A stretch of 64,000 nucleotides of DNA from Malacoraja senta (Eukaryota): assembly GCA_038087875.1 (NCBI GenBank), contig CM075988.1:25608001-25672000 (forward strand), in the 5' to 3' direction. Under the pieces are notes generated by a model. It did no database searches and was not told the origin of the DNA. It saw only the letters and a program-made list of their open reading frames with translations. Below, piece by piece: positions 491 to 63,345 of the stretch (the stretch's first letter is position 1; every line of letters starts with the position of its first letter). The position numbers and the translations under genes are program-made.

Positions 491-714
491 ATTTCTGGAG
501 TCGAGGCCAGACTCCAGAGATCCACACACGGCGTTCAGACCTGTGCTTGAAATCCTGTATTGGTGAGCGGTGAAGTACTGAGGGACCAGTGTCCAGAGCA
601 TGCTACACTGGGTGACGCCAGCTGAGGGAGTATTGCACTGTGGAAGATCAAGGTCTAATGTACAGTCCAGGGAATGCGGCATGCATGTGGAGTTGGTATT
701 CAGAGAGTGTTAAA

Positions 715-946
715 GAAGGAACTGCAGATGCTGGAAAATCGAAGGTACACAAAAATGCTGGAGAAACTCAGCGGGTGCAGCAGCATCTATGGAGCGAAGG
801 AAATAGGTAACGTTTCGGGCCGAAACCCTTCTTCAGACTCAAACTCCAGAGTGTTGAAGAAGGGTTTCGGCCCGAAACGTTACCTATTTCCTTCGCTCCA
901 TAGATGCTGCTGCACCCGCTGAGTTTCTCCAGCATTTTTGTGTACC
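715..946. mobile_element. Palindromic Penelope-derived pLTR pair (family A) with 16-bp TSD
   Basis: Inverted arms about 744-838 and 854-946; TSD ttcagagagtgttaaa at 699-714 and 947-962. Confidence 0.85.
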
Positions 947-1015
947 TTCAGAGAGTGTTAAACTGTTGGAACAGCAATGCAGGGAGGAATCTGCATTCTT
1001 ACAGGAGCAGTGAGA

Positions 1016-3098: not shown

Positions 3099-3310
3099 GT
3101 TAGACACAACTCAGTGGGACAGGCAGCATCTCTGGAGAGAAGGTCTAGGTGAGGTTTCGGGTCGAGACCCTTCTTCAGTCTGAAGAAGTCTTGAATCTGA
3201 AGAAGCGTCTTGACCTGAAACGTCACCTATTCCTTTCCTTGACCCGCTGAGTCACGTCAGGTTTTTGTGTCCATCCGGTTTAAAAACCCGGCATCAGTAG
3301 TTCCTACACA
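3099..3310. mobile_element. Degenerate palindromic Penelope-like pLTR pair (family B)
   Basis: aactcagtgggacaggcagcatctctggag...cttcagtctgaagaag...cctgaaacgtcacc. Confidence 0.7.
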
Positions 3311-9503: not shown

Positions 9504-9703
9504 NNNNNNNNNNNNNNNNNNNNNNNNNNNNNNNNNNNNNNNNNNNNNNNNNNNNNNNNNNNNNNNNNNNNNNNNNNNNNNNNNNNNNNNNNNNNNNNNN
9601 NNNNNNNNNNNNNNNNNNNNNNNNNNNNNNNNNNNNNNNNNNNNNNNNNNNNNNNNNNNNNNNNNNNNNNNNNNNNNNNNNNNNNNNNNNNNNNNNNNNN
9701 NNN
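9504..9703. other. Assembly gap (200 N)
   Basis: Run of N. Confidence 0.99.
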
Positions 9704-13404: not shown

Positions 13405-13631
13405 TTTGTTTAAGAAGGAACTGCAGATGCTGGAAAATCGAAGGTAGACAAAAATGCTGGAGAAACTCAGCGGGTGCAGCAGCATCTATGGAGTGAAGGA
13501 AATAGGCAACGTTTCGGGCTGAAACCCTACATCAGTCTGAAGAAGGGTTTCGGTTCGAAACGTAACCTATTTCCTTCGCTCCATAGATGCTGCTGCACCC
13601 GCTGAGTTTCTCCAGCATTTTTGTCTACCTC
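13405..13631. mobile_element. Palindromic Penelope-derived pLTR pair (family A) with 15-bp TSD
   Basis: TSD tggtcaataaagaga at 13390-13404 and 13632-13646. Confidence 0.85.
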
Positions 13632-14682: not shown

Positions 14683-14891
14683 GTGTGTGTGTGCTTGTGT
14701 GTCTGTCTCCCTGTGTGTGTATGTGTGCCTCCCTGTGTGTGTGTGTCTCCTTGTGTGTGTGTGTCTCCCTGTGTGTGTGTGTGTGTCTTCCTGTGTTTGT
14801 GTGTCTCCCTGTGTGTGTGTGTCTCCCTGTGTGTGTGTGTGTGTCTCTGTGTGTGTGTGTGTGTCTCCCAGTGTGTGTGTTTGTCTGTCTC

Positions 14892-14967
<76 letters not shown>

Positions 14968-14987
14968 TTCCTTTGTGTATGTGTCTC

Positions 14988-15033
<46 letters not shown>

Positions 15034-15115
15034 TTCCTTTGTGTATGTGTCTCCCTGTGTGTGTGTGTGTGTGTGTGTGTGTCTTCCTTTGTGTGTGTGT
15101 CTCCCTGTGTGTCTG
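14683..15115. repeat. Compound (TG)n / gtctccct minisatellite
   Basis: TG runs punctuated by tctccc / tcttcc. Confidence 0.95.
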
Positions 15116-16690
15116 TTGTCACATCCTAGCCTTAGACAGGGCTCCCAACTCTCACACTTTGAGCGTGAGAGTCACGCATTTCAGCCAATGCTCACGCTGA
15201 TGACAGAATTCTCACGCTGTCTTCAGTCCCTGCACAGTTTGTCTCTTTTGCGCCACATCACAGCGATCTGTGCAGTCTGGGGAAGCGCGTCAGTTGGCGG
15301 CTGTGAGTGACATCGCATATCTTCTCTTCTCTTCTGTCTTGGTTGGATGTGCAGCTGCCGACAACATGAAGCAGCCGGAGATAGAACTAACCAGGTGAAT
15401 TGGTTGTAAAACATGGGGGGGGGGGGGGGGGACCACAATGAGGCCAAACATCTAGGACAGGGTTCGGCAACCTACGGCACACGGGCCGAATCCGGCCCGT
15501 AACCCGACAAAACGCGTTTTGTTTTTCAATTTATTTTCACGGGGTCGGGGCAGGCAAGCCGACCTGAGAACTGCAGCCAGTCCCTGGGACACGAGCTGAT
15601 CTGGGAACGGCAGCCAGTCCCTGGGCACGCAGAATGCCAACTTGATCATTATGGGCAAATTGGGCCAGCCATGTACATGTTGTATAACTCTGACTCTATG
15701 CAGATCTGAATGGGCTTAGAATGACCTTTTAAGCAAAATTGCCCTCACTTTCCCCATTTTGATTCTTGAGATTAATATCCCTTTGCTCTGTTAACAGCGT
15801 TAAAGTACTTATGAGGTAGAGTCAGGAAAGGGAACGTGTTATTTTCTTTTAGTTTGCTTTAATTTGTTAGTTGATTTTTTGTTGACTGCCATAATTTCTG
15901 AAATGGTCTTAATATAACTTAACTGTTATAAAGCAGTAATAAGTGATTTTTGTCCAAACAATTGGAACTTGCATAAAATGTTTGCATTATTAGCAGGGCT
16001 GCCAACTCTCACGCATTGAGCATGAGACTCACGCATTTCACAAAACTCTCATGCTCTCACGCTGATCACAAAATTATATAATGACAATAGGACCTGTTTT
16101 GCTTAACAAATAGTGTAGGAAGGAATTGCAGATGCTGGTTTAAACTGAAGATAGACACTAAAAACTAGAGAAATTCAGCAGGACAGGCAGCATCTCTGGA
16201 GAGAAAGAATGGGTGATGTTTCGAGTCGAGACCTTCAGCCCGAAGAGGTTGAAAACCAGCCATAAAACACAATGACTGGACATGTGTGTTATCCAACTAA
16301 GGGCAGAAATCAGAATCATGTGTTCATCTTTATTCACGTGACACCATAATAAGTATATTACAGAAACAATAATGTAATGGGGTGGCACGGTGGCGCAGTG
16401 GATGAGTTGCTGCCTTACTACCACATGGGTTTTCTCTGGATATTCCGGTTTCTCCCATATCCGAAAGAAGTGCAGGTTTGTAGGTTAATTGGCTTCTGTA
16501 TATTGTCCCTGGCGTGATGGATGGAATTGGTGAATGATAGATTGCTGGTCGGTGTGGGCTTTGTGGGCGGAAGGGTCTGTTTCCATATATATTTTTACAT
16601 ATATATCTTAATTTCATTGAACCATATATGATTGAATATGTGGCATTATTTTCGTCTTGTTTCTATATTCAAAGGGTAAGGTTGAAACCG

Positions 16691-16820
16691 TCAGAAGAAG
16701 GGTTTCGGCCCGAAACGTTGCCTATTTCCTTCGCTCCATAGATGCTGCTGCACCCGCTGAGTTTCTCCAGCAATTTTGTCTACCTTCGATTCTCCAGCAT
16801 CTGTAGTTCCTTCTTGAACA
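16691..16820 (+). mobile_element. Penelope-like pLTR (family A) with 3' tail
   Basis: gaagaagggtttcggcccgaaacgttgcc...gtctaccttcgattctccagcatctgtagttccttctt. Confidence 0.8.
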
Positions 16821-18094: not shown

Positions 18095-18602
18095 TTTTAG
18101 TTTGGAGATACAGAGTGGAAACAGGCGCTTCGGCCCACCAAGTCCGCACCAACCAGCGATCCCCACACATCAACACTATCCTACACACACTCCAGACAAT
18201 TTGCAATTTTACCAAGCCAACTAGTCTAACTAGCCAACTAGTCTGAAGAAGGGTTTCGGCCCGAAACGTTGCCTATTTCCTTCGCTCCATAGATGCTGCT
18301 GCACCCGCTGAGTTTCTCCAGCAATTTTGTCTACCTTCGATTTTCCAGCATCTGCAGTTCCTTGTTGAACATAGCCTATAAACCTGTACGTCTTTGGAGT
18401 GTGGGAGGCGGTGCTGGCTCGAAGGGCCGAATAGCCTACTCCTGCACCTATTGTCTATTGACACCGGAGCATCCGGAGAAAACCCACGCGGTCACAGGGA
18501 GAACATACAAACTCCGTTCAGACAGCGCCCGTAGTTAGGATAAAGCCCGGCTCCCTGACACTGAAAGGCAGCAACTCTACCGCTGCGCCACCATGCTGCC
18601 CT
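18095..18602 (-). mobile_element. HE1-type SINE with nested pLTR (18240-18370) and CR1 tail (18407-18460)
   Basis: SINE segments are collinear around the two inserts. Confidence 0.8.
18240..18274 (+). ncRNA. Minimal type-I hammerhead ribozyme core (family A, intact)
   Basis: CUGAAGA-A-GGGU(UUCG)GCCC-GAAAC-GUU; activity not shown. Confidence 0.65.
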
Positions 18603-26555: not shown

Positions 26556-26940
26556 GGGGGGTTGAATGTATCCTGGACAAGGATTGTAATATAGATAAAA
26601 GTGCTGGAGAAACTCAGCGGGTGAGGCAGCATCTATGGAGCGAAGGAAATAGGCAACGTTTCAGGTCGAAACCTTCAGACAAGGGTCTCGACCCGAAACG
26701 TTGCCTATTTCCTTCGCTCCATAGATGCTGCCTCACCCACTGAGTTTCTCCAGCACTTTTGTCTACCTACGATTTTTCCAGCATCTGCGGTTCCTTCTTA
26801 AACAAGGATTGTAATATAGTTATTTAGTAGTTATTACTTGGTATATTTGTTTTGTCGTACTATGTGGTGAGTTCTGTTTTGTTTTATCGTGTGGTAAATA
26901 CTATTTTAATGCTTGAATAAATATTTTTGGTTTAAAAAAA
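26556..26940 (+). mobile_element. Poly(A)-tailed (L1-type) 3' fragment with 17-bp TSD
   Basis: AATAAA 26916-26921 then A run; TSD aaggtgagt(g/t)aacacta at 26539-26555 and 26941-26957. Confidence 0.75.
26595..26801. mobile_element. Palindromic pLTR pair with 18-bp TSD, nested in the poly(A) element
   Basis: TSD acaaggattgtaatatag at 26577-26594 and 26802-26819. Confidence 0.85.
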
Positions 26941-27405: not shown

Positions 27406-28872
27406 GTAGCTGGCACTGGAGTAATTGAATGTTTATCCTCTTGTGTTTGTTATTCCCTAAATTAGGATAGTTGTGTATTCACAAACACATTTTCAAATGA
27501 CACTGTTGTGTATTGGAGAGTTACTAACACGTGGCCAAATTGGGAAATTGGAAAAATTACAAACAGCATTGGATGAAGGTGTTTAACTTGCCCACAAAGA
27601 CTTCCTGAAGACGCTGGGGTTCCCCAACTTGTGTGAGCTCCAAACCTGGCGATCCAGTGTTCAGTCAGTCTGTGTCTCTCCTTCCGCCCTTCATTAAACC
27701 TTCTCCAGTTGTAGCTCTGATGAGCACATCGTGACACTCACTGTCCTGTCCCCTCGTGTGCCTGCCTTTACACTGGGACATTTTACTACGTCCAGGCACC
27801 ATTTGTTGCTATTATTTACCAAGTGACTGCACAAGTTGTGTTGCTGCCATGTTGGAAATGGATTCCAAATGACTGGCCACGCCTCAGTAATCCACATGGG
27901 TGGCCCCGAAATGCAAATTAATTGTAGACAAACATTTCAAGATTTCCCTTAGTAAGTAATTGCATTAGCAGAAGTTCTTCATTGAGTTATTTGTCTGTAA
28001 AGAGCAACAAAAACCCTTACATTTATGAAATACCATTCGTGACTGAGGATCGCCAAGTACTTTACAGGCAAAAAATGTGTTTCAATTGCCATTAATATTG
28101 CAGTGTCAGAAACATCACAGTCCTGATACGGGATCTCGAACCAAAACATTGACTATCCCTTTGGCTCCACAGATGCTGCCTGACCTTCTGAGTTCTTTCA
28201 GCAGTTTGTTTTTTTAGTGCCAGATTACAGCATGCTCTAGTTCATAAATTCATGTGATAGAAGCAGAATTAGGCCATTCGGCCCATCAGGTCTACTCCGC
28301 CTTTCAATCATGGCTGATCTATCTTTCCCATTCTCCTGCCATCTCCCCATCACTCCCTGGCTGCGAGTGTCAGCATGGTAGTCACGTTGTGCAGAATATG
28401 TTTCTACAAACAGAGACATAAGTACTTTTAAAATGTTCTTCTGACTTGGGCAGCTGCTCAGCCCATTGGGTCCCTGCCAGCTTTCAGAACAAGCAATTCA
28501 TTCCATTCACCCACTCGTTTCTCACAATGACCTTCACCTCCCCCATCATTCTCCTGCCACCCACCTACACCAGAGACCAGTGGTTGCGGCCAGTTGACCT
28601 CTCGACCCGCTGCTGTGATGTGGGAGTAAATCAGTGCATCTGGTGGACACCCACGCGGTCATCGGGAGAAGGCAACAAGTCTGTACGGTTAGCACCAGAG
28701 GCCAGGGTTGAACCTGGGTCATGATAACTGGCGGACAACAGCAATAACACCGCAAGCCAAATGGACATATCATCTGGTTTAGTCATCCTCATGAGGAATC
28801 AGGGACAGTTTCTTCCCAGCTGTTATCAGGCAACTGAACCGTCCTATCATAACCAGAGAGCAGTGCTTAACT

Positions 28873-28999
28873 GTTCAAGAAGGAACTGCAGATGCTGGAG
28901 AATTGAAGGTAGACAAAAATGCTGGAGAAACTCAGCGGGTGAGGCAGCATCTATGGAGCGAAGGAAATAGGCAACGTTTCGGGCCGAAACCCTTCTTCA
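28873..28999 (-). mobile_element. Single pLTR (family A) with TSD
   Basis: gcagtg(c/t)ttaact at 28860-28872 and 29000-29012; intact minus-strand hammerhead core. Confidence 0.8.
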
Positions 29000-29489
29000 G
29001 CAGTGTTTAACTACCATCTACCTCATCGGGGACCATCACACAATCTTTGATTGGACTTAACCTTGCACTAAACGTTATTCTCTGATCATGTATATGTACA
29101 CTGTGGATGGCTCAATTGTAATCATGTATTGTCTTGCTGCATTTTTCACTGTACCTCGGTACACGTGACAATAAACTAAACTGAACTGAGCTGATTAATA
29201 TCATCCAGACCACAGTTCTCCCCTTCCCTTCCTTTGCATCAGTACTAGGTGATCATTTACATCCACCTTTAATATCCCACACAGATCTTTCTTTGTTTTC
29301 CACTGGAAACCCACTCTGGAAACATATGTGTAATATCCTGGCTGATATTGCAGATGTTTTTTTTCCGGAGAGGGATTTGAACTCTCTGCCTCTGAAGCAA
29401 GACAATGCTACTCACTCAGTGTAATGCTGCCTGGAGAACAAACTTCCTTTTCTTCCCCTCAAACCAAAAGAATCATTTTGTGAAATCAG

Positions 29490-31822: not shown

Positions 31823-32264
31823 TTCAAGGGGTCTCGACCGGAAACACCGCCCATTCTTTCTCTCCAGAGACCCTGCCTGTCCCGCTGAGTTACTCCAGCT
31901 TTTTGTATCTATCTTTAGTTTTGACATCACACCAGGTGCTGGTTAGTGTATAAGGTTAGTGTGTGGGGATCACCGGTCGGCGTTGACTCGGTGGGCCGAA
32001 GGGCCTGTTTCCGCGCTGTATCTCCAAACTAATCTAAATGAATAGCTAGCACTAACATCGCTAAGAACAGCGTACCAAAAGGTCCTCATTCACAGAGCCA
32101 GTGTGTGTACTCTGCCGCAGGGCCGCAGGCATGTGCCTTACTCGAGACTGTTAATACATTGCATATGTGGAGAGAATTAACAATCAGATAATCACACCTC
32201 AGTGAGTGAAATTTGTCACCAGTTGTGACAATCAATTAGCACAGATGGAGGTCACAATCCTCTG

Positions 32265-32470
32265 GTACACAAAAATGCTGGAGAAACTCAGCGGGTGCAG
32301 CAGCATCTATGGAGCGAAGGAAATAGGTAACGTTTCGGGCCGAAACCCTTCTTCAGACTGATAGGGGGTGGGGAGAAGAAAGGAAAAAAGGAAAAGGCGG
32401 AGGAGGAGCCCGAGGGCTGGGGGAGGGGAGGAGACAACCAGATGGCTGATGAAGGGGAGGGGACGTGATC
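32265..32470 (-). mobile_element. Penelope-like 3' end (pLTR plus pyrimidine-rich UTR) with 14-bp TSD
   Basis: TSD gtcacaatcctctg at 32251-32264 and 32471-32484; same UTR as 53155-53494. Confidence 0.85.
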
Positions 32471-33430
32471 GTCACAATCCTCTGCTTGGTTTCTGTTAGC
32501 AGGTTATTAAATAATCAAAAGCGCTGCTCTCAGCTGATGTTCAAGAAGCAACTGCAGATGCTGGAAAAATCTAAGGTAGACAAAAATGCTGGAGAAACTC
32601 AGCGGGTGAGGCAGCATCTATGGAGGTGATGTTTCGGGTTGAGACCCTGAGGGTCTCATCCGCTGAGTTTCTCCAGCATTTTTGTCTACCTCCGACCTGC
32701 TGTGGTCATTTGTTTAGTTTAACAGCTGGAATACTGGGGCAGGTTAGTGGTCTTTTCAATGGATGGGTGTAAGCTGAAGAATGACATCCTGTTTGACCCA
32801 CACTCCAAAGACGTACAGGTTCGTAGGTTAATTGGCTTGGTGTAAGTGTAAAACAGTCCCGAGTGTGTGTAGGGTAGTGGGAATGTGTGGGGATCGCTGG
32901 TCGTTGCAGACTCGGTGGGTCGAATGGCCTGTTTTCACACTGTATCTCTAAACCAAACTAAGCTAAAAACTATCTAAAAGCCTCTTAAACACGACTATCG
33001 TATCTGTGTAAAAAAATAATTACACCTCACATCACCTTTGAACTTTGTCAATCTCAATTTAAAGTTGAGCCCTCTAGTGATTGATGTCTCTATCGGGTAG
33101 TTCTTTTCTCCTTTCTAGAGTACACAGCCTCAGACAATTCAGATGTTCCTAACTTCTGATAAAATAGCAACTATTTTTACTGTTCCTCTAATTTATAGGC
33201 TTCAACATCAGTGGAAGTTTACCTGCCATATCATCCTGTTTCCTCCCCACCTTACCCTGCCCTGGGCCATCAGTGGGCCTTGAGGCTTTGCTGATGTTAG
33301 TTATGTCCCTATGGGAAGGGTTGGGGAAACACACATCCTGGCCTCTCTATTTTAAACTTCCTGTGAGGCTCCGATGTATAAAAATATCCATTCTTCCCCT
33401 ACTGGCTGCATCGACTAACGAAGAAGCGTA

Positions 33431-47969: not shown

Positions 47970-48169
47970 NNNNNNNNNNNNNNNNNNNNNNNNNNNNNNN
48001 NNNNNNNNNNNNNNNNNNNNNNNNNNNNNNNNNNNNNNNNNNNNNNNNNNNNNNNNNNNNNNNNNNNNNNNNNNNNNNNNNNNNNNNNNNNNNNNNNNNN
48101 NNNNNNNNNNNNNNNNNNNNNNNNNNNNNNNNNNNNNNNNNNNNNNNNNNNNNNNNNNNNNNNNNNNNN
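47970..48169. other. Assembly gap (200 N)
   Basis: Run of N. Confidence 0.99.
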
Positions 48170-49029: not shown

Positions 49030-49512
49030 CAGGGGATATGGGGAGAAGGCAGGAACGGGGTACTGATTGGGGATGATCAGCCATGATCACATGGAATGGC
49101 GGTGCTGGCTCGAAGGGCCGAATGGCCTACTCCTGCACCTGTCTATTGTCTATTGTCTATTGATTCCGTTAGCCCTAAGAGCTATATCTAACTCAGTATG
49201 GAACAAATGAATGAAAGATGTGCAAAAGGTAACAGTGATATCCCCAATTGTCCCTGTAGATGGCATGAGCTAAACACAGCTCTCCACAATAATGGATAAA
49301 GATAAAGGAAAGAAATGGAACTGTGGAATTAGTGTACGAGCAAACGACTAGTCACGCCTGAGTGATGGTTTCTAACCTTACAGCCGCATGCTGAAGGATT
49401 ACTGTTGGCCAGTGTGATCATGCAGCACGGCTACGTATAGATATTCACTTGCTGCCGGCTGTATCCGGAAAGGTCAGTTTGACCGGGTTATAACATAAAG
49501 AGTCAGTAACTA

Positions 49513-49894
49513 TGTAGAGACAAAGAATTGCAGACACTGGTTAATATACAAAAGGACACAGAGTGCTGGAGGAACTCAGCGGGTCAGGCAGCATCTGTGG
49601 AGAACATGGATAGGTGACGTTTCACAGAGTGCTGGAGTAACCCAGCGGGTCAGGCAGCATCTGTGGAGCGAAGGAAATGGGCAACCTTTCGGGCCGAAAC
49701 CCTGAAGGAAATAGGCAACGTTTCGGGCCGAAACCCGGAAGGGTTTCGGGCCGAAACGTTGCCTATTTCCTTCGCTCCATAGATGCTGCCGGAACATGGA
49801 TAGGTGACGTTTCACAGAGTGCTGGAGGAACTCAGCGGGTCAGGCAGCATCTGTGGAGAACATGGATAGGTGACGTTTCTGGTCGTCTCAACTT
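49513..49894 (-). mobile_element. Tandem pLTR-derived array with 13-bp TSD
   Basis: Three units of about 65 nt; TSD gagtcagtaacta at 49500-49512 and 49895-49907. Confidence 0.8.
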
Positions 49895-50125
49895 GAGTCA
49901 GTAACTAATCTTTTGCACGTTTTTCCAATACTGATCCCTCAGACTGTCCAAACCCGACCTCCTGTTGCGGAGGGAATGGTCCTTCAGCTGCCAGGGCCCG
50001 CAGTCCGAGATTCCTTGCGAGCCTTCAGAATGATCAAACCAACTTTGACCAAGCTTGTCTTGTTGCACTATCTAATGGAAACCATGGTGGATTAGAGGTC
50101 AGATGTTGTCACAATGTTGTTGACC

Positions 50126-51124: not shown

Positions 51125-51252
51125 GGTAGACAAAAATGCTGGAGAAACTCAGCGGGTGAGGCAGCATCTATGAAGCGAAGGAATAGGTGACGTTTCTCCA
51201 GCATTTATGTCTACCTTCGATTTTTCCAGCATCTGCAGTTCTTTCTTAAACT
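51125..51252. mobile_element. Internally deleted pLTR palindrome with 11-bp TSD
   Basis: ctcagtcattt at 51114-51124 and 51253-51263. Confidence 0.75.
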
Positions 51253-52728: not shown

Positions 52729-53154
52729 TCTTCACTGTGGTGGAAGGCAACAAAGTTCAGCCAGTCCCCCTCCTTTTGGTTCAGAATTGACTTGCTACTG
52801 TTTCAAGTATCTGATAGCCTTGTATTTACAGACCCAAGTGCCTGAGATAATGCAGCATAGTTATATAATCACCAGGTAATGGAGGTGAGCTGGATTGAGT
52901 GTGAGCCTGAGACAACAAGGTTTCAAGTTGCCCTCCACGGTAAACTGTTGCCAAATGTACAAGCTATTGAGAAGAATGAAACTGGATGAACTAGAAGTTA
53001 GACTTATCCTCGAGAACTGAGGGACTGCTGTGTGCTCTGTTTCACAGAGACATGGCTCACTCAGAGAGTCATAGAGTCCTACAGATTCCTTCAGCCCAAC
53101 TTGTCCAAGCTGACCGACATGACCCAGTGTGTGAGCAGTTGACATCATTGCTAG

Positions 53155-53494
53155 GCGGACAAAAGTGCTGGAGAAACTCAGCGGGTGCAGCAGCATCTAT
53201 GGAGCGAAGGAAATAGGCAACGTTTCGGGCCAAAACCCTTCTTCAGACTGATGTGGGGTGTGGGGGGTGTGGGGGGGGGGAGAAGAAAGGAGAAAGGAAG
53301 AGGAGGAGCCCGAGGGCTGAGGGAGAGCTGAGAAGGGGAGGGGACAGCAAGGGATTGGAGATACCAGAAATTGGAGAAGTCAATGTTTATGCCGCTAGGG
53401 TGCAGACTCCCCAAGCGGAATATGAGGTGCTGCTCCTCCAATTTTCCGGTGGTGCTCACTCTGGCCATGGAGGAGGCCCAGGACAGAGAGGTCT
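53155..53494 (-). mobile_element. Penelope-like element 3' end: GIY-YIG C-terminal remnant, UTR and pLTR with hammerhead
   Basis: DLSVLGLLHGQSEHHRK/LEEQHLIFRLGSLHPSGINIDFSNF (one frameshift) matches the E..(W/L)I..L..L.P.G.N motif of PLE endonucleases; 16-bp TSD ttgacatcattgctag (53139-53154, 53495-53510). Confidence 0.88.
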
Positions 53495-53974
53495 TTGACA
53501 TCATTGCTAGTTGCTGAACATCCCCACTGGGGCAGTGAAGGGCAGCTACTGGTGACATTGGGTGGAGAAGTAGTGACAACCAGGAAGGGGGGTGGACTCA
53601 CATTTTCCATGGATTGGCACTTTGTGATTTTGAACAGTTTCCTGATCAGCGATTCCCACGGTGCGATGCCCATCCCTCGGACCGAGATACATGTTCTGGT
53701 GCTGGGCAGTGTCAAGAGCATTGTCCAGTCTGTTGATTCAGCTACTTAAACAAGAGACCTCATGGACATTTCCGTCAAAAACAGCAATCTGGGCTCATTA
53801 AATAATGCTCTCCTCCCCCGGCACAAACAAACAGAGCCACATGGAGGTGAAACAATATTATTCATCATTATTATCCTTTCTAATAGTGTGTGCAGCTGCT
53901 GCAAGTATTTTGTAGAGAATACTCTGCAGGGCAAAACGTTGCACTGAAATCAGGCGATTCCAATTTAGCCGGCG

Positions 53975-54967: not shown

Positions 54968-55237
54968 AGAGGGTGGGGCGAATCTTTGGAATTAATTGCC
55001 ACTGACGGCCGTAGCTCTAGGCCAAGTCATTGTGTATTTTTAAAGCAGAGATTGATCAGTTCTTGATTAGCAAGAGCATCAACGGATACGGGGAGATGGC
55101 CGGAGAATGGGGTTGAGAGGGAAAAATAGATCAGCCATGATCAAATGGTGGAGCAGGCACAATGGGCCGAATGGCCTTATTCTGTTCCTGTGTCTCATGA
55201 TCTTATTCTCACCAGGAGACGACCCACAGATGTCAGA

Positions 55238-55405
55238 GGTAGACAAAAGAGCTGAGAAACTCAGCGGGTGCAGCAGCATCTATGGAGCGAAGGAAATAGG
55301 CAACGTTTCAGGTTGAAGAAGGGTTTCAACCCGAAACGTTGCCCATTTCCTTCGCTCCATAGATGCTGCCTCACCCGCTGAGTTTCTCCAGCATTTTTGT
55401 CTACC
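55238..55405. mobile_element. Palindromic pLTR pair (family A)
   Basis: ggtagacaaaa...ttttgtctacc. Confidence 0.85.
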
Positions 55406-55683
55406 CTATATATATCTATTACTTTCTTTGCTTCATTTTATTTGACATGGAAGATTTTGCAACCTTCCCCCTCTGATATTGGCCAATTTACTGTCAAATA
55501 CTGGAAGAAGAGGTCAAGTCAAAGTCAAGGGTGTGTATTAGTCATATCCATGGACCAGACCAATGGAATTCTTACTGGCTGCAGCTTCACAGACGCATTA
55601 GATGCAAACAACAATAAACGTGCCATAAATGATCAATTATTCTAAGTACGCTAGACCATGTTGGCGCAAAAACCAAAGAGCGT

Positions 55684-55923
55684 AAAGGGCCTGTCCCACT
55701 TACATGTCCTTGGCATGCAAATTACGCTACCTCGTGGTCGCGTTGAGCCGCGACGGTCCCGCGATGGTCACGCGCGATTACATGCGTACGCACAGCCGTC
55801 TGGAGCACGTGACGTCATTTGTGGGACCGGCCCCGCGCGGCCACACGATGCCCGTGCGTCTCAACGCGACCACGAGGTCGTGTACTTTGCGTGCCAAGGA
55901 CACGTAAGTGGGGCAGGCCCTTT
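55684..55923. mobile_element. Near-fully palindromic MITE (Harbinger-like)
   Basis: aaagggcctgtcccacttacatgtccttggca / tgccaaggacacgtaagtggggcaggcccttt. Confidence 0.8.
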
Positions 55924-56447
55924 AAAAACCAAAGTCCATGGTGGTTTGATGTGAAGGTTGGGTTGTGGGGTGGGTTGTACGGGATGGTTCAGGAACCTGA
56001 TGCTGATGGGAAGAAGCTATTCTTGAACTTGGGAATAGTTGTTCTCAGGCTCCTGCACCTTCTTCTCAAAGGTAGTAATGAGAAAAGAGTGGAGCCAGCG
56101 TGGTCTGGTATTTGATGATATTGACCACCTTCTTCATGTTCATGAGTGAGTGGAGCAGAATTAGGCCATTCGTCCCATCAAGTCTACATTCAATCATGGC
56201 TGATCATACATGATACTCGGCAGGTCAAGAAGAATATACAGAGAGAGAAACAGTTAAGATGTTTTTTTCCATCAGGACCAGGAAAACCTAAAACCATAAA
56301 CGTGGATTAGAGATGGGAGAACAAAGGATATGTCTGTGTAAAAGACCATGATGGAAATAGTGGTAACGTCAGTGAAAGATGGTCAATGTTTGTTAACTGC
56401 AAATGATCCACCTGGAGGAGATGAAACTAGGAGGAGAAAAATGGCAG

Positions 56448-56678
56448 GTAGACAAAAGTGCTGGAGAAACTCAGCGGGTGCAGCAGCATCTATGGAGCGA
56501 AGGAAATAGGCAACGTTTCGGGCCGAAACCCATCTTCAGGCATCAGTCAGACTGAAGAAGGGTTTCGGCCCGAAACGTTGCCTATTTCCTTCGCTCCATA
56601 GATGCTGCTGCACCCGCTGACTTTCTCCAGCACTTTTGTCTACCTTCGATTTTTCCAGCATCTGCAGTTCCTTCTTAA
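56448..56678. mobile_element. Palindromic pLTR pair (family A) with tail
   Basis: Intact + core at 56552-56579; ends gttccttcttaa. Confidence 0.85.
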
Positions 56679-57261
56679 CCACAGATGTCAGAACCTGGTT
56701 CAACTTGTGCAAGGGGAGTGAGCAGCCTATTTATTCTCTTCTCATATTTCATATTTGGCAGCACCTTCTCCTCAGGCGAGGATGTGGAAAGGCAAATCCA
56801 TCGTTGTCCAAATGTGTGGGTTTCTCAACCCCGTTGATGCATGAGTGCCCCCACACCATCCGACCCAGGATGATATCCGGAGCAAAGGCTATAAACGACC
56901 CTTTAAAAAAATTGTCGGAGTTTTAAAGGATGTTGTTTTCAAGAGGAAGGAGGTGGGAATGGAGGGTTGGAGAGGGGAGAAACACATGATGAATGGGAGT
57001 AGTCTGTGTCAGGGCTAAATGTAGTCACTCCACTAATTCATGGGTTGAGCAAACCAGTGCAGTCTGGCTGTGGTGAGCGGCTCCAGTTTGCAACGAGCAA
57101 TATTCTACACAGACACATGGCTCCAGGCCCAGGCAAGTCGTAGGTTCTGCCACATCAAGAGGCAAGAGCATTTCATTGTTATACGTCGCAGACAGAACAA
57201 TGAGATTCTTACATGCACCAGCACATCAGAAGATGTAAACAGTACTCTATAAAGAATATCA

Positions 57262-58427
<1,166 letters not shown>

Positions 58428-58441
58428 AGTGCCCTCCATAA

Positions 58442-59367
58442 GGAGGAGGAGCCATCTTGTGGAACTGCTGCTAACCTGCAGCCGTCCGTTTAAATTACTT
58501 TTTTAATGGTTTTAGTGAGTCTCCGTTTTGCTTGTAGGAGACATTCTACTTTTTAATGTCTGGTGAAGGGGGCAACGAAATTTCTAGGTCCCTACCTGGT
58601 CGGTCCCTTTCCTGGCGGGAACCGCCCTGCACCTCGGTTTGGTGGCGGCAGAGCGTTGCCGCGGAGCGTAGCGGGCGATGCCTTGCCTGGATCGCCGCGC
58701 TGGATCGTCGCGTCGGAGCTCCGGTAGGCTGTGACCGCCGAGGTCAACACCTCCGGGCCGCGGGACTGCGGAGAGGATCGGGCGGCGCCGACCTTAACAT
58801 CGGGAGCCTTGGAGCTCCAAACCGGCGCGGCCTTGTCAGCTTCGGTAGCTGCGGCCTCCGGTGAGGAATGCGGCCGTTCCAGGTGGCCCAGCCGCTGCGA
58901 GGACTCTCCCGACGCCGGGCCAGCATCACCCGGTGAAAACGGCCAGGAACATCGGGCCTCCGTAGAGGCAATAGCGGAGGCCTCAATAGGCCTGACTTTG
59001 GGTGAACTGGGGTTGGGGACTGGACATTGTGCCTTCCCCCACAGTGGTAATTCATTGTGGGGGGATGATTTTTGTGTGTTGTGTCTTTGTTAGTCTGTGT
59101 TCAAGATGGCGGTCGGAGGGGAGAGTGGACGCTGGCGCGGTTTAGCTGCCGCTGCTCTCTCCTCAAATTGTGTTTCTGATTTTCTTTTTTGTGCCTTTGA
59201 AATGAATTCTGTCCTTAAGTTGTGTATTGTGATGTTGTTGATGTCCTTACTATATTTTTTATTTTTTTATTCTGCTTATATGTTTTGTAATCTGCTTATC
59301 TGCAAGGCGTCCTTGAGAGTCTTTGAAAGGCGCCCATAAGTGTAATGATAAATAACAAATAAAAATA
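58442..59367 (+). mobile_element. Second copy of the L2-tailed CpG-rich retroposon
   Basis: Collinear with 51767-52728 from the identical 5' start to the aaggcgtccttgagagtctttgaaaggcgc tail. Confidence 0.8.
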
Positions 59368-59699
59368 ATGTTTGGGACAAAGACCCATCATTTATTTATT
59401 TGCCTCTGTACTCCACAATAGAAAAAAATCACATGTGGTTAAAGTGCACGTTGTCAGATTTTATTAAAGGCCATTTTTATACATTTTGGTTTCACCATGT
59501 AGAAATTACAGCTGTGTTTATACACAGTTCCCCCATTTCAGGGCACCATAATGTTTGGGACACATGGCTTCACAGGTGTTTGTAATTGCTCAGGTGTGTT
59601 TAATTGCCTCCTTAATGCAGGTATAAGAGAGCTCTCAGCACCCAGTATTTTCTCCAATCTTTTCATCACCTTTGGAAACTTTTATTGCTGTTTATCAAC

Positions 59700-59900
59700 A
59701 TGAGGACCAAAGTTGTGCCAAAGAAAGTCAAAGAAGCCATTATGAGACTGAGAAAGAAGAATAAAACTGTTAGAGACATCAGCCAAACCTTAGGCTTACC
59801 AAAATCAACTGTTTGGAACATCATTAAGAAAAAAGAGAGCACTGGTGAGCCTACTAATCGCAAAGAGACTGGCAGGCCAAGGAAGACCTCCACGGCTGAT
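59700..59900 (+). pseudogene. Tc1 transposase N-terminal DNA-binding domain (truncated)
   Basis: MRTKVVPKKVKEAIMRL...VRDISQTLGLPKSTVWNIIKK...TGRPRKTS (paired-like HTH plus GRPR motif). Confidence 0.88.
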
Positions 59901-59939
59901 GCACAATCAACTACACCCTTATTCAAAAGGCTAGCTCGG

Positions 59940-60255
59940 GGCAGGACCAGAGGACAGAGCCTCAGAATTAAAGGGTGTTCCTTTAGAAAGGAGAAGAGGA
60001 GGAATTTCTTTAGTCAGAGGGTGGTGAATCTGTGGAATTCGTTGCCACAGAAGGCTGTGGAGGCCAGGTCAATGGATATTTTTAAGGCAGAGATAGATAG
60101 ATTCTAGATTAGTACAGGTGTCAGAGGTTTTGGGGAGAAGGCTGGAGAATGGGGTTAAGAGGGAATGGTAGATCAGCCATGATTGAATGGCAGAGGTATT
60201 ATTGATGGGCCGAATGACCTAATTCTGCTCTTATCACATGGACATGAACTTATGA
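59940..60255 (+). mobile_element. CR1 3' end
   Basis: RTRGQSLRIKG...WNSLPQKAVEARSMDIFKAEIDRF. Confidence 0.85.
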
Positions 60256-63167: not shown

Positions 63168-63345
63168 GTGTAGGAAGTTACTGCAGATGCTGGTTTACAC
63201 CGAAGATAGACATAAAAAGCTGGGGTAACTCAGCGCGACAGGCAGCATCTCTGGGGAGAAGGAATGGGTGACTCTTCTTCAGACTGAATGGTCTCGACCC
63301 GAATTGTCACCCATTCACTGAGTTACTCCAGCATTTTGTGTCTCT
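63168..63345. mobile_element. Degenerate pLTR palindrome
   Basis: Family B arms. Confidence 0.7.

What the first reader, a model, noticed from the sequence alone, without database searches (positions are those of the whole stretch)
53155..53494. Penelope-like 3' end links a GIY-YIG remnant to a minimal hammerhead ribozyme and identifies the most abundant short repeat in the window
Seen: on the minus strand, a peptide ending LEEQHLIFRLGSLHPSGINIDFSNF is followed by a pyrimidine-rich UTR and then cagtCTGAAGAagggttttggcccGAAACGTTgcc, all within a 16-bp TSD. Established: this resembles the GIY-YIG endonuclease C-terminus of Penelope-like elements (PLEs), and PLE pseudo-LTRs carry minimal type-I hammerheads with a palindromic, loop-less helix III (Cervera and De la Pena 2014). 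Inference: the roughly 100-nt unit scattered across the window is the ribozyme-bearing pLTR of this PLE.
Basis: partly seen in the sequence, partly recalled or inferred. Interest (0 to 1): 0.7.

Follow-up and report, generated by a model that had tools for sequence, protein, structure and literature searches.

The report
Penelope retrotransposon stump with hammerhead motif
This is a broken end-piece of a known kind of jumping gene (a Penelope-like element) in a skate-like genome, and it shows that the commonest short repeat around it is that element's ribozyme-bearing end, an expected arrangement rather than a new system.

Summary
Observation confirmed; interpretation supported; the system is known. 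53155-53494 (-) is a 5'-truncated Penelope-like element (PLE) inside a flush 16-bp duplication: the last ~42 codons of the GIY-YIG endonuclease (frameshifted; 79% identical to a skate gene model, 48-57% to three shark RT-zinc-finger-GIY-YIG proteins, so probably Neptune-type), a pyrimidine-rich UTR and a minimal type-I hammerhead motif (14 descriptor hits in the window, 0.08 per shuffle). It is the window's only PLE coding remnant and ties the commonest dispersed repeat (~50 arms) to the element. Additions: the unit has two 3' ends (~95, ~130 nt: the PLE 'tail'); 10 of 11 head-to-head insertions join one long and one short arm; 0 of 51 arms start at the cut site, while 23 of 30 start within 6 nt upstream of the core. 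Ribozyme activity is unproven: helix I has 2 bp, covariation does not exceed shuffles, and the predicted fold hides the core. Inverted pLTRs, tails and minimal hammerheads are published PLE features, and this scan noted the same architecture earlier in two shark-like genomes. One 1.44-kb insertion appears to have captured 1 kb of host DNA.

The parts
53495..53510 (.). Target-site duplication, 5' side (16 bp)
53446..53493 (-). GIY-YIG endonuclease C-terminal remnant, first frame (16 codons)
53442..53445 (-). Frameshift: one extra base in an A-run, absent from many related copies
   Evidence: table 4, place 53442
53367..53441 (-). GIY-YIG endonuclease C-terminal remnant, second frame (25 codons); no stop follows
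53252..53366 (-). Pyrimidine-rich 3' UTR / upstream part of the pLTR; about 75 nt shared with the copy at 32264-32470
53245..53251 (-). TCAGTCT: where most short copies begin; matches the initiator consensus YYANWYY (weak: 8 matches in the 340 nt) and also reads as a CAG acceptor after a pyrimidine tract
   Evidence: consensus recalled
53217..53248 (-). Minimal type-I hammerhead motif: helix I 2 bp (53248-47 with 53218-17), core CUGAAGA 53246-40, extra A 53239, helix II 4 bp (53238-35 with 53230-27, loop UUUG where most subfamily-A copies have UUCG), GAAA 53226-23, loop-less palindromic helix III ACGU 53223-20, predicted cut after 53219
53155..53216 (-). 3' part of the pLTR unit, ending a few bases before the usual 'short' end; no tail in this copy
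53139..53154 (.). Target-site duplication, 3' side (16 bp)
18241..18372 (+). Example solo 'long' unit (with ~35-45-nt tail); similar at 16690-16820 (+) and 28872-29000 (-)
32264..32470 (-). Second UTR-bearing subfamily-A copy, short end, 14-bp TSD
708..950 (.). Head-to-head pair long(-)/short(+) in a 16-bp TSD; 17-nt filler at the junction matches the flank of the older copy at 399
13407..13631 (.). Head-to-head pair long(-)/short(+), 15-bp TSD
26592..26804 (.). Head-to-head pair short(-)/long(+), 18-bp TSD
51125..51252 (.). Head-to-head pair short(-)/long(+), 11-bp TSD, 5-bp overlap at the junction
55238..56678 (.). Compound insertion in a 14-bp TSD (55224-55237, 56679-56692): pair, 1.04 kb of non-PLE DNA, pair; outer ends short and long

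Best explanation
A dead, 5'-truncated copy of an endonuclease-positive Penelope-like retrotransposon, probably Neptune-type, in a skate-like genome. How it arose: the element's RT/GIY-YIG protein cut the target with a stagger of about 16 nt, primed cDNA at an internal start site about 90 nt downstream of the hammerhead core, copied 340 nt and was joined to the other target end (identity shown by homology and TSD; mechanism taken from the in vitro work on the anole PLE, PMC11167929). The ~95/~130-nt repeat is the same pLTR end copied from either of two RT start sites (two ends shown; equation with start sites inferred from that paper). Head-to-head pairs are most likely single events in which both cut strands prime, one from each start site, and the two cDNA ends are joined by short homology or filler (inferred, about 0.55). 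Most short arms stop 0-6 nt upstream of the core, most simply because the template RNA starts there, at TCAGTCT, which would also explain why helix I can be only 2-3 bp (inferred, about 0.45). The hammerhead is most likely a conditional, dimer- and protein-dependent cutter that is off in the RNA that gets copied (inferred); this genomic copy has no likely function.
For: Protein: 79% over 42 aa to a Leucoraja gene model (E 1.6e-10) whose last 100 aa are a GIY-YIG/CCHH domain; that domain retrieves shark and invertebrate proteins with RT + CxxxxCxxC + GIY-YIG, to whose C-termini the peptide aligns (57, 55, 48, 38% for P0004-P0007; unjoined 25-mer 64%). A profile of 80 unnamed full-length relatives scores it 16.1 bits at positions 705-742, best of 500 shuffles -0.4, and finds no other convincing PLE coding piece in six frames of the window (next E 0.17). 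A zebra-shark gene model that runs past the stop ends SLMKGLRPKR against SLKKGFGPKR here, compatible with the same motif at the same place with N7 changed. RNA: 14 descriptor hits vs 0.08; helix II paired in 93% and helix III in 91% of cells in 29 arms. Ends: two 3' end classes; loose ends pile at 55405 and 56678 in contigs of three relatives. Pairs: 10 of 11 assessable insertions are long+short, 6 of 11 have a TSD of 9-18 bp round the whole pair. 5' ends: 23 of 30 core-retaining arms share at most 6 nt with the UTR upstream of C3; 0 of 51 start at the cut site +/-2.
Against: No Pfam or Rfam family recognises the piece itself. No full-length element, RT or linker lies in the window, so the Neptune label rests on relatives. 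Helix I reaches 3 bp in 0 of 14 descriptor hits. No covariation beyond shuffles in the hammerhead (398 of 500 shuffles as high) or in the 3' stem (396 of 500). The minimum-energy fold pairs the core and helix II 5' strand with downstream bases (-11.2 vs -4.5 kcal/mol; hammerhead pairs at probability 0.0). The initiator match is weak (1% of positions). 5 of 11 pairs show no TSD of 9 bp or more and one is long/long. The anole work saw no strand difference in start-site use, which does not predict long+short asymmetry. No empty site was seen.
Confidence: 0.85

Rival explanations
1. Same identity, but the inverted pairs arise by self-priming (fold-back) on one template, as proposed for rotifer PLEs, not by priming on both target strands.
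For: PMC3846280 Discussion argues this from palindromes at junctions; near-palindromes TTCAG(A/T)CTGAA occur at several junctions here (3170-3190, 13524-13548, 63270-63280).
Against: Arms of one pair differ in sequence and in 3' end, junction positions vary widely (reference positions 1-72), some junctions hold filler copied from elsewhere (708-950, 32626-32656); the anole protein cuts and extends both strands in vitro (PMC11167929).
Confidence: 0.25
2. The 5' clustering is not the RNA start but a stop: RT stalls or switches template at the structured, protein-bound hammerhead region, or at an intron end (CAG after a pyrimidine tract, as the Drosophila virilis intron ends at helix I).
For: 21 of 51 arms start further downstream at scattered positions; 7 of 30 run on into the UTR; the filler at 839-855 shows switching at this very sequence; PMC4209133 reports the intron-helix I coincidence.
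Against: No shared exon-1-like sequence precedes the 23 arms that begin at the core, apart from the neighbouring 399/838 case; the strongest predicted helix lies downstream of the stop point.
Confidence: 0.4
3. The short unit is an independent non-autonomous element (non-LTR retrozyme, SINE or MITE) that replicates as its own unit, possibly through a ribozyme-made circle.
For: High copy number, fixed ends, hairpin-shaped pairs with TSDs; a 2026 preprint derives animal retrozymes from PLE pLTRs.
Against: No head-to-tail array of intact hammerheads (closest same-strand descriptor hits 373 bp apart, then over 3 kb); 0 of 51 arms start at the cut site; pairs have unequal arms, variable centres and 9-18-bp TSDs; the unit is continuous with the endonuclease gene at 53155-53494.
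Confidence: 0.08
4. The motif is a hammerhead by descent but catalytically dead in this lineage, kept as promoter or RT-binding sequence.
For: 2-bp helix I, no covariation, inactive predicted ground state; hammerhead mutants did not impair insertion in vitro (PMC11167929).
Against: Core and ACGU palindrome are kept across subfamilies about 80% identical and apparently in a shark; 2-bp helix I occurs in published PLE hammerheads (Culex, three Drosophila species, Oikopleura); the anole motif cleaves only with protein.
Confidence: 0.3

Closest known systems
Endonuclease-positive Penelope-like elements, Neptune clade (PMC8557442; passages seen)
   Same: C-terminal GIY-YIG with CCHH and CX2-5CxxC linker in the nearest relatives; 5' truncation; pLTR with hammerhead; inverted 5'-truncated copy; tail at one end only.
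   Different: Only the last 42 codons survive here; clade not tested by RT phylogeny; most insertions are 95-250-bp stumps with no coding sequence.
Minimal hammerheads of metazoan PLEs (Cervera and De la Pena 2014, PMC4209133)
   Same: CUGANGA, extra base before G10.1-C11.1, GAAA, loop-less palindromic helix III, UH cut site.
   Different: Helix I 2 bp and helix II 4 bp, at the short end of the published range; no cartilaginous fish among the rows of Fig. S3 that I saw.
Poseidon element of Anolis (PAc; Frangieh et al. 2024, PMC11167929)
   Same: Two internal RT start sites defining a tail; uncut RNA is the template; copies do not end at the hammerhead cut site.
   Different: Other clade; PAc ORF starts in stem II, whereas no conserved ATG frame was found here; PAc prefers AT-rich ATT targets, which I did not test.
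Adineta vaga Penelope elements (Arkhipova et al. 2013, PMC3846280)
   Same: Inverted pLTR plus tail within one TSD; capture of unrelated host DNA between pLTRs.
   Different: Low copy number and 8-10-bp TSDs there; about 50 arms in 64 kb and 8-18-bp TSDs here.
Non-LTR retrozymes (bioRxiv 10.64898/2026.07.22.740005)
   Same: Type-I hammerhead in a short pLTR-derived unit.
   Different: Defined by head-to-tail tandem units with complete hammerheads; the units here are solo or head-to-head.

Membership tests
EN+ Penelope-like element | C-terminal GIY-YIG endonuclease of PLE type | tested here: met
   C-terminal 42 codons align to the ends of RT-GIY-YIG proteins; the catalytic motif itself is truncated away
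EN+ Penelope-like element | PLE-type RT in the same ORF | tested here: inconclusive
   Absent from the window; present in relatives P0004-P0007, P0009
EN+ Penelope-like element | pLTR with hammerhead motif downstream of the ORF | tested here: met
EN+ Penelope-like element | Optional 30-40-nt tail, often at one end; adjacent inverted truncated copy | tested here: met
   Met by the family, not by this copy: two end classes, 10 of 11 pairs long+short
EN+ Penelope-like element | Target-site duplication | tested here: met
   16 bp flush; empty site not seen
Neptune clade | CX2-5CxxC linker before the endonuclease | tested here: inconclusive
   Not in the window; in P0004, P0006, P0007, P0009 by eye and in 93 of 124 long relatives by pattern; shared with Nematis and Naiad
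Neptune clade | RT phylogeny with named references | not tested
   No named reference PLE sequences were at hand
Minimal type-I hammerhead | Core CUGANGA-N, G10.1-C11.1 helix II, GAAA, palindromic loop-less helix III, UH | tested here: met
Minimal type-I hammerhead | Helix I of 3 bp or more (published consensus) | tested here: not met
   2 bp in 10 of 14 hits, 3 bp in 0 of 14; 2-bp cases are in the published alignment
Minimal type-I hammerhead | Covariation supporting the helices | tested here: inconclusive
   Only one-sided changes (U-A/U-G); score not above shuffles; copies are decaying, not independently selected
Minimal type-I hammerhead | Site-specific self-cleavage as dimer or with protein | not testable with these tools
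   Needs in vitro assay
Non-LTR retrozyme | Two or more consecutive head-to-tail units with complete hammerheads | tested here: not met
   the tandem cluster at 49522-49885 lacks the 5' half of the core
MITE | Fixed terminal inverted repeats, uniform length, short fixed TSD | tested here: not met
   Unequal arms, variable centres, TSD 9-18 bp; definition recalled

The most novel reading that the evidence does not exclude
The short units are complete copies of a ~130-nt leader of the PLE transcript that starts three bases before the hammerhead core; a PLE protein dimer primes both strands of one staggered cut, one subunit committed to the short start site and the other to the long one, and the free cDNA ends then search for homology, switching onto neighbouring chromosomal copies. 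That one process would give solo stumps, long+short hairpin pairs, templated fillers (839-855) and kilobase captures of host DNA (55238-56678), making PLE stumps a frequent agent of host-DNA duplication in skates and sharks and a large natural data set to decide the open question of how PLE inverted ends form.
Probability: 0.3. Interest if true: 0.55.

Novelty: new member of a known kind. Interest (0 to 1): 0.3.

Why it matters
For annotation: it identifies a very dense skate repeat that looks like a SINE or MITE as the end of a Penelope-like element, and warns that gene models absorb it (the top hits are chimeric skate models, one named neuromedin-U receptor 1). For mechanism: PLE integration is still poorly understood; young, abundant stumps with clean TSDs, two fixed 3' ends and varied junctions allow a genome-wide test of two-strand priming against self-priming. 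The hammerhead-PLE link itself has been in print since 2014, so the finding as written adds a lineage, not a principle.

Tried and rejected
Whole-genome search: no genome is held, so copy number and full-length elements could not be examined. Pfam on the peptide: 0 families for 2 of 2 single-frame pieces and for the read-through. Rfam: 0 hits at gathering in 64 kb; 5 weak unrelated hits and no hammerhead at E<=10 on the locus. Search with P0003 for longer relatives: 0 of 219 candidates. Searches used mis-indexed helix columns and are discarded; one search is the valid count. Long-range helix I using downstream GCUGA or GAUG: rejected by inspection, it cannot start at the cut site. A 9-bp stem closing only the long unit is predicted and 91-100% paired in 19 long arms but has no two-sided change: kept as a lead only. 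Hammerhead cleavage as source of the 5' ends: 0 of 51. Common spliced exon 1: not seen. Conserved ATG frame after the motif: open in subfamily A, closed in B by inspection. Empty site: no such joint among those shown (5493 not shown); the three contig runs come from relatives (one flank contig has 26 differences in 341 nt) and the raw run laid 6 reads. A possible host exon at 53605-53742 (-) gave no PDB hit and only unrecognised atlas hits. Depths were not used as copy numbers.

Full report
Observation. A 16-bp exact repeat lies flush on both sides (53495-53510, 53139-53154). In a control, 5 of 295 random position pairs reached that score with 14 nt of slack on each side (not inspected). The quoted peptide occupies 53441-53367. 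Sixteen further homologous codons lie upstream in another frame (53493-53446), with one extra base in an A-run between; contigs of three related organisms lack a base at 53442 (84, 75, 63 contigs), so the break belongs to this copy or its near kin. No stop follows NF. The copy is dead as a gene.

Protein identity. Pfam does not recognise the piece. Read through with X at the break, it found 2 proteins among 11 candidates: a Leucoraja gene model at 79% (E 1.6e-10) and an unnamed one at 69%. The last 100 residues of the first are a GIY-YIG domain with the CCHH pattern, fused in the model to an unrelated RT piece (GIY-YIG E 0.008, below the cut-off). That region found 6 proteins among 139 candidates, including whale shark, zebra shark, bamboo shark and sea urchin models; I fetched 5 of the 6, and they show RT, a cysteine linker and GIY-YIG. 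The peptide aligns with their extreme C-termini; the unjoined 25-mer alone is 64% identical to the whale-shark protein. A profile from 80 of 124 long relatives among the 150 returned scores the peptide at 16.1 bits against -0.4 for the best of 500 shuffles; in six frames of the window the best hit is this locus (E 0.044), the next 0.17. The CX2-5CxxC linker marks Neptune and Nematis (PMC8557442) and is in 93 of 124 relatives, so Neptune-type is likely but not tested by phylogeny. The host is inferred to be a skate or ray from these labels only.

The RNA motif. A loop-less type-I descriptor gives 14 hits in the window, all in this repeat, against 0.08 per shuffle (100 shuffles). The motif fits the consensus of Cervera and De la Pena. 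Against activity: helix I is 2 bp in 10 of 14 and never 3; in 29 aligned arms (chosen as those keeping most of the core, of about 51) helix II is 93% and helix III 91% paired but covariation is not above shuffles; the minimum-energy fold buries the core in a competing helix (-11.2 vs -4.5 kcal/mol), and the dimer with helices II and III scores -13.3 against -32.7 for the best co-fold. Rfam has no hammerhead hit. Published minimal hammerheads are inactive as monomers and weak as dimers, and the anole one cleaves only with its protein, so these results neither surprise nor prove function. A zebra-shark gene model that reads past the stop ends in a peptide compatible with the same motif (1 of 159 stored proteins).

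The repeat family. It is the commonest dispersed repeat by loci (47 vs 25); 51 arms are found with one reference, 56 pieces with three, in a young subfamily (about 90-98% identical) and older ones (about 72-88%). 3' ends fall in two classes, about 95 and about 130 nt from the core. In contigs of three relatives loose ends pile at the same two places, 55405 (617, 681, 606) and 56678 (329, 364, 345), with heterogeneous continuation; part of those at 55405 are simply long copies. This is the PLE tail, which PMC11167929 maps to two RT start sites. Head-to-head pairs: of 11 assessable insertions (708, 3108, 13407, 26592, 32537, 45482, 47681, 51125, 62149, 63170 and the compound 55238-56678 by its outer ends) 10 are long+short and one long/long (3108 and 63170 classed by eye; 12/2048 = 0.006 by hand at even odds; 10 of 12 if the compound is counted as two pairs). 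Left out: 63839 (window end), the tangled clusters at 1019-1210 and 49522-49885, and 23556/23783 (the first arm has its own TSD). Six of the 11 have a TSD of 9-18 bp round the whole unit. 5' ends: 30 of 51 arms keep the start of the core; 23 of those share at most 6 nt with the UTR, 7 run further; none of 51 starts at the cut site.

How it most likely works. Shown: identity, TSD, two ends, pairing, 5' clustering. Taken from the anole work: staggered cut, extension of both strands, internal starts, uncut RNA as template. Inferred: pairs are two cDNAs primed at the two target ends and joined by 0-5 nt of overlap or by filler; stumps are copies of a short leader because the RNA starts at TCAGTCT (a weak initiator match; Drosophila Penelope has an internal initiator-type promoter, PMC2377424), while the copy under study was primed in a downstream pLTR and so ran on into the endonuclease gene. 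Two loci suggest that nascent cDNA can switch onto other DNA: the filler at 839-855 repeats 17 nt of the flank of the older copy at 399, and 55238-56678 holds 1.04 kb of non-PLE DNA within one 14-bp TSD, like the captures reported in a rotifer. The donor and empty site were not seen; ectopic repair between existing pairs explains the latter as well.

Comparison and novelty. Hammerheads in pLTRs, inverted truncated copies, the one-sided tail and host-DNA capture are all published. I found no paper describing this family in skates: searches (2 papers; 1; 0; 3; 3) were seen as listings only and none appears to be about it; Dfam and Repbase could not be searched, and genome-paper supplements may name it. 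The 2026 retrozyme preprint includes one cartilaginous fish; its supplements are closed. Two earlier notes of this scan report the same architecture in shark-like genomes; they are unchecked and are not counted as support. I had seen the pairs, tail and 5' clustering before that look-up (note); the second note's wording on the RNA start agrees with, and sharpened, my reading.

What I saw of each paper. PMC4209133: parts 1-2 of 4 of the text, parts 1-2 of 3 of supplementary file 2, not file 1. PMC11167929: parts 1-2 of 4. PMC3846280: passages and the Discussion. PMC8557442, PMC2377424, PMC6765202: passages. bioRxiv 10.64898/2026.07.22.740005: part 1 of 5 and three passages. Lunse et al. (PMC5785218): not held, known only as cited in PMC6765202. 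The initiator consensus, the MITE definition and the labels CR1-type and SINE for other repeats are recalled.

Verdict. Real, correctly read, new member of a known kind; interest 0.3.

Noticed in passing
window 55224-56692: 14-bp direct repeat encloses two inverted pLTR pairs and 1.04 kb of unrelated DNA: candidate PLE-mediated capture of host DNA. A contig of a relative matches 56097-56440 and then diverges, so the inner segment may lack the PLE arm there (record 7).
   Followed up: partly
window 839-855 and 380-398: Junction filler of the young pair at 708-950 is identical over 17 nt to the flank of the older copy at 399, in inverted orientation: template switch onto a neighbour about 450 bp away.
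   Followed up: yes
window 49500-49907: Six arm pieces of two subfamilies, mostly head-to-tail and lacking the 5' core, inside a 13-bp direct repeat: repeated template jumps in one event, or nested insertion.
   Followed up: partly
window 32626-32656: 31-nt filler in a subfamily-A pair resembles a subfamily-B arm; the pair has no TSD nearby.
   Followed up: no
window 55683-55924: A 242-bp element with about 16-bp terminal inverted repeats, self-complementary at 73% and abundant in relatives: MITE-like, inside the captured segment.
   Followed up: no
window 53605-53742 (-): Open 46-codon stretch ending at a GTGAGT donor-like site 95 nt upstream of the insertion; no PDB or credible atlas match. 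May be chance.
   Followed up: partly
long arms, e.g. window 18241-18372: AGAUGCUG pairs with CAGCAUCU of the tail, a 9-bp stem present only in the long form; the short end lies in its loop. Conserved but without two-sided change.
   Followed up: partly
P0002, P0008: Skate gene models, one named neuromedin-U receptor 1, contain the PLE endonuclease end: probably annotation chimeras.
   Followed up: no
window 59616-60104 (+): ORF piece starting MRTKVVPKKVKEAIMRLRKK looks like a helix-turn-helix transposase start (recalled resemblance) joined to a CR1-type 3' end.
   Followed up: no
window 57215-58490 and 14700-15200; 9504-9703 and 47970-48169: Long (GT)n-type tracts; two assembly gaps of 200 N.
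   Followed up: no
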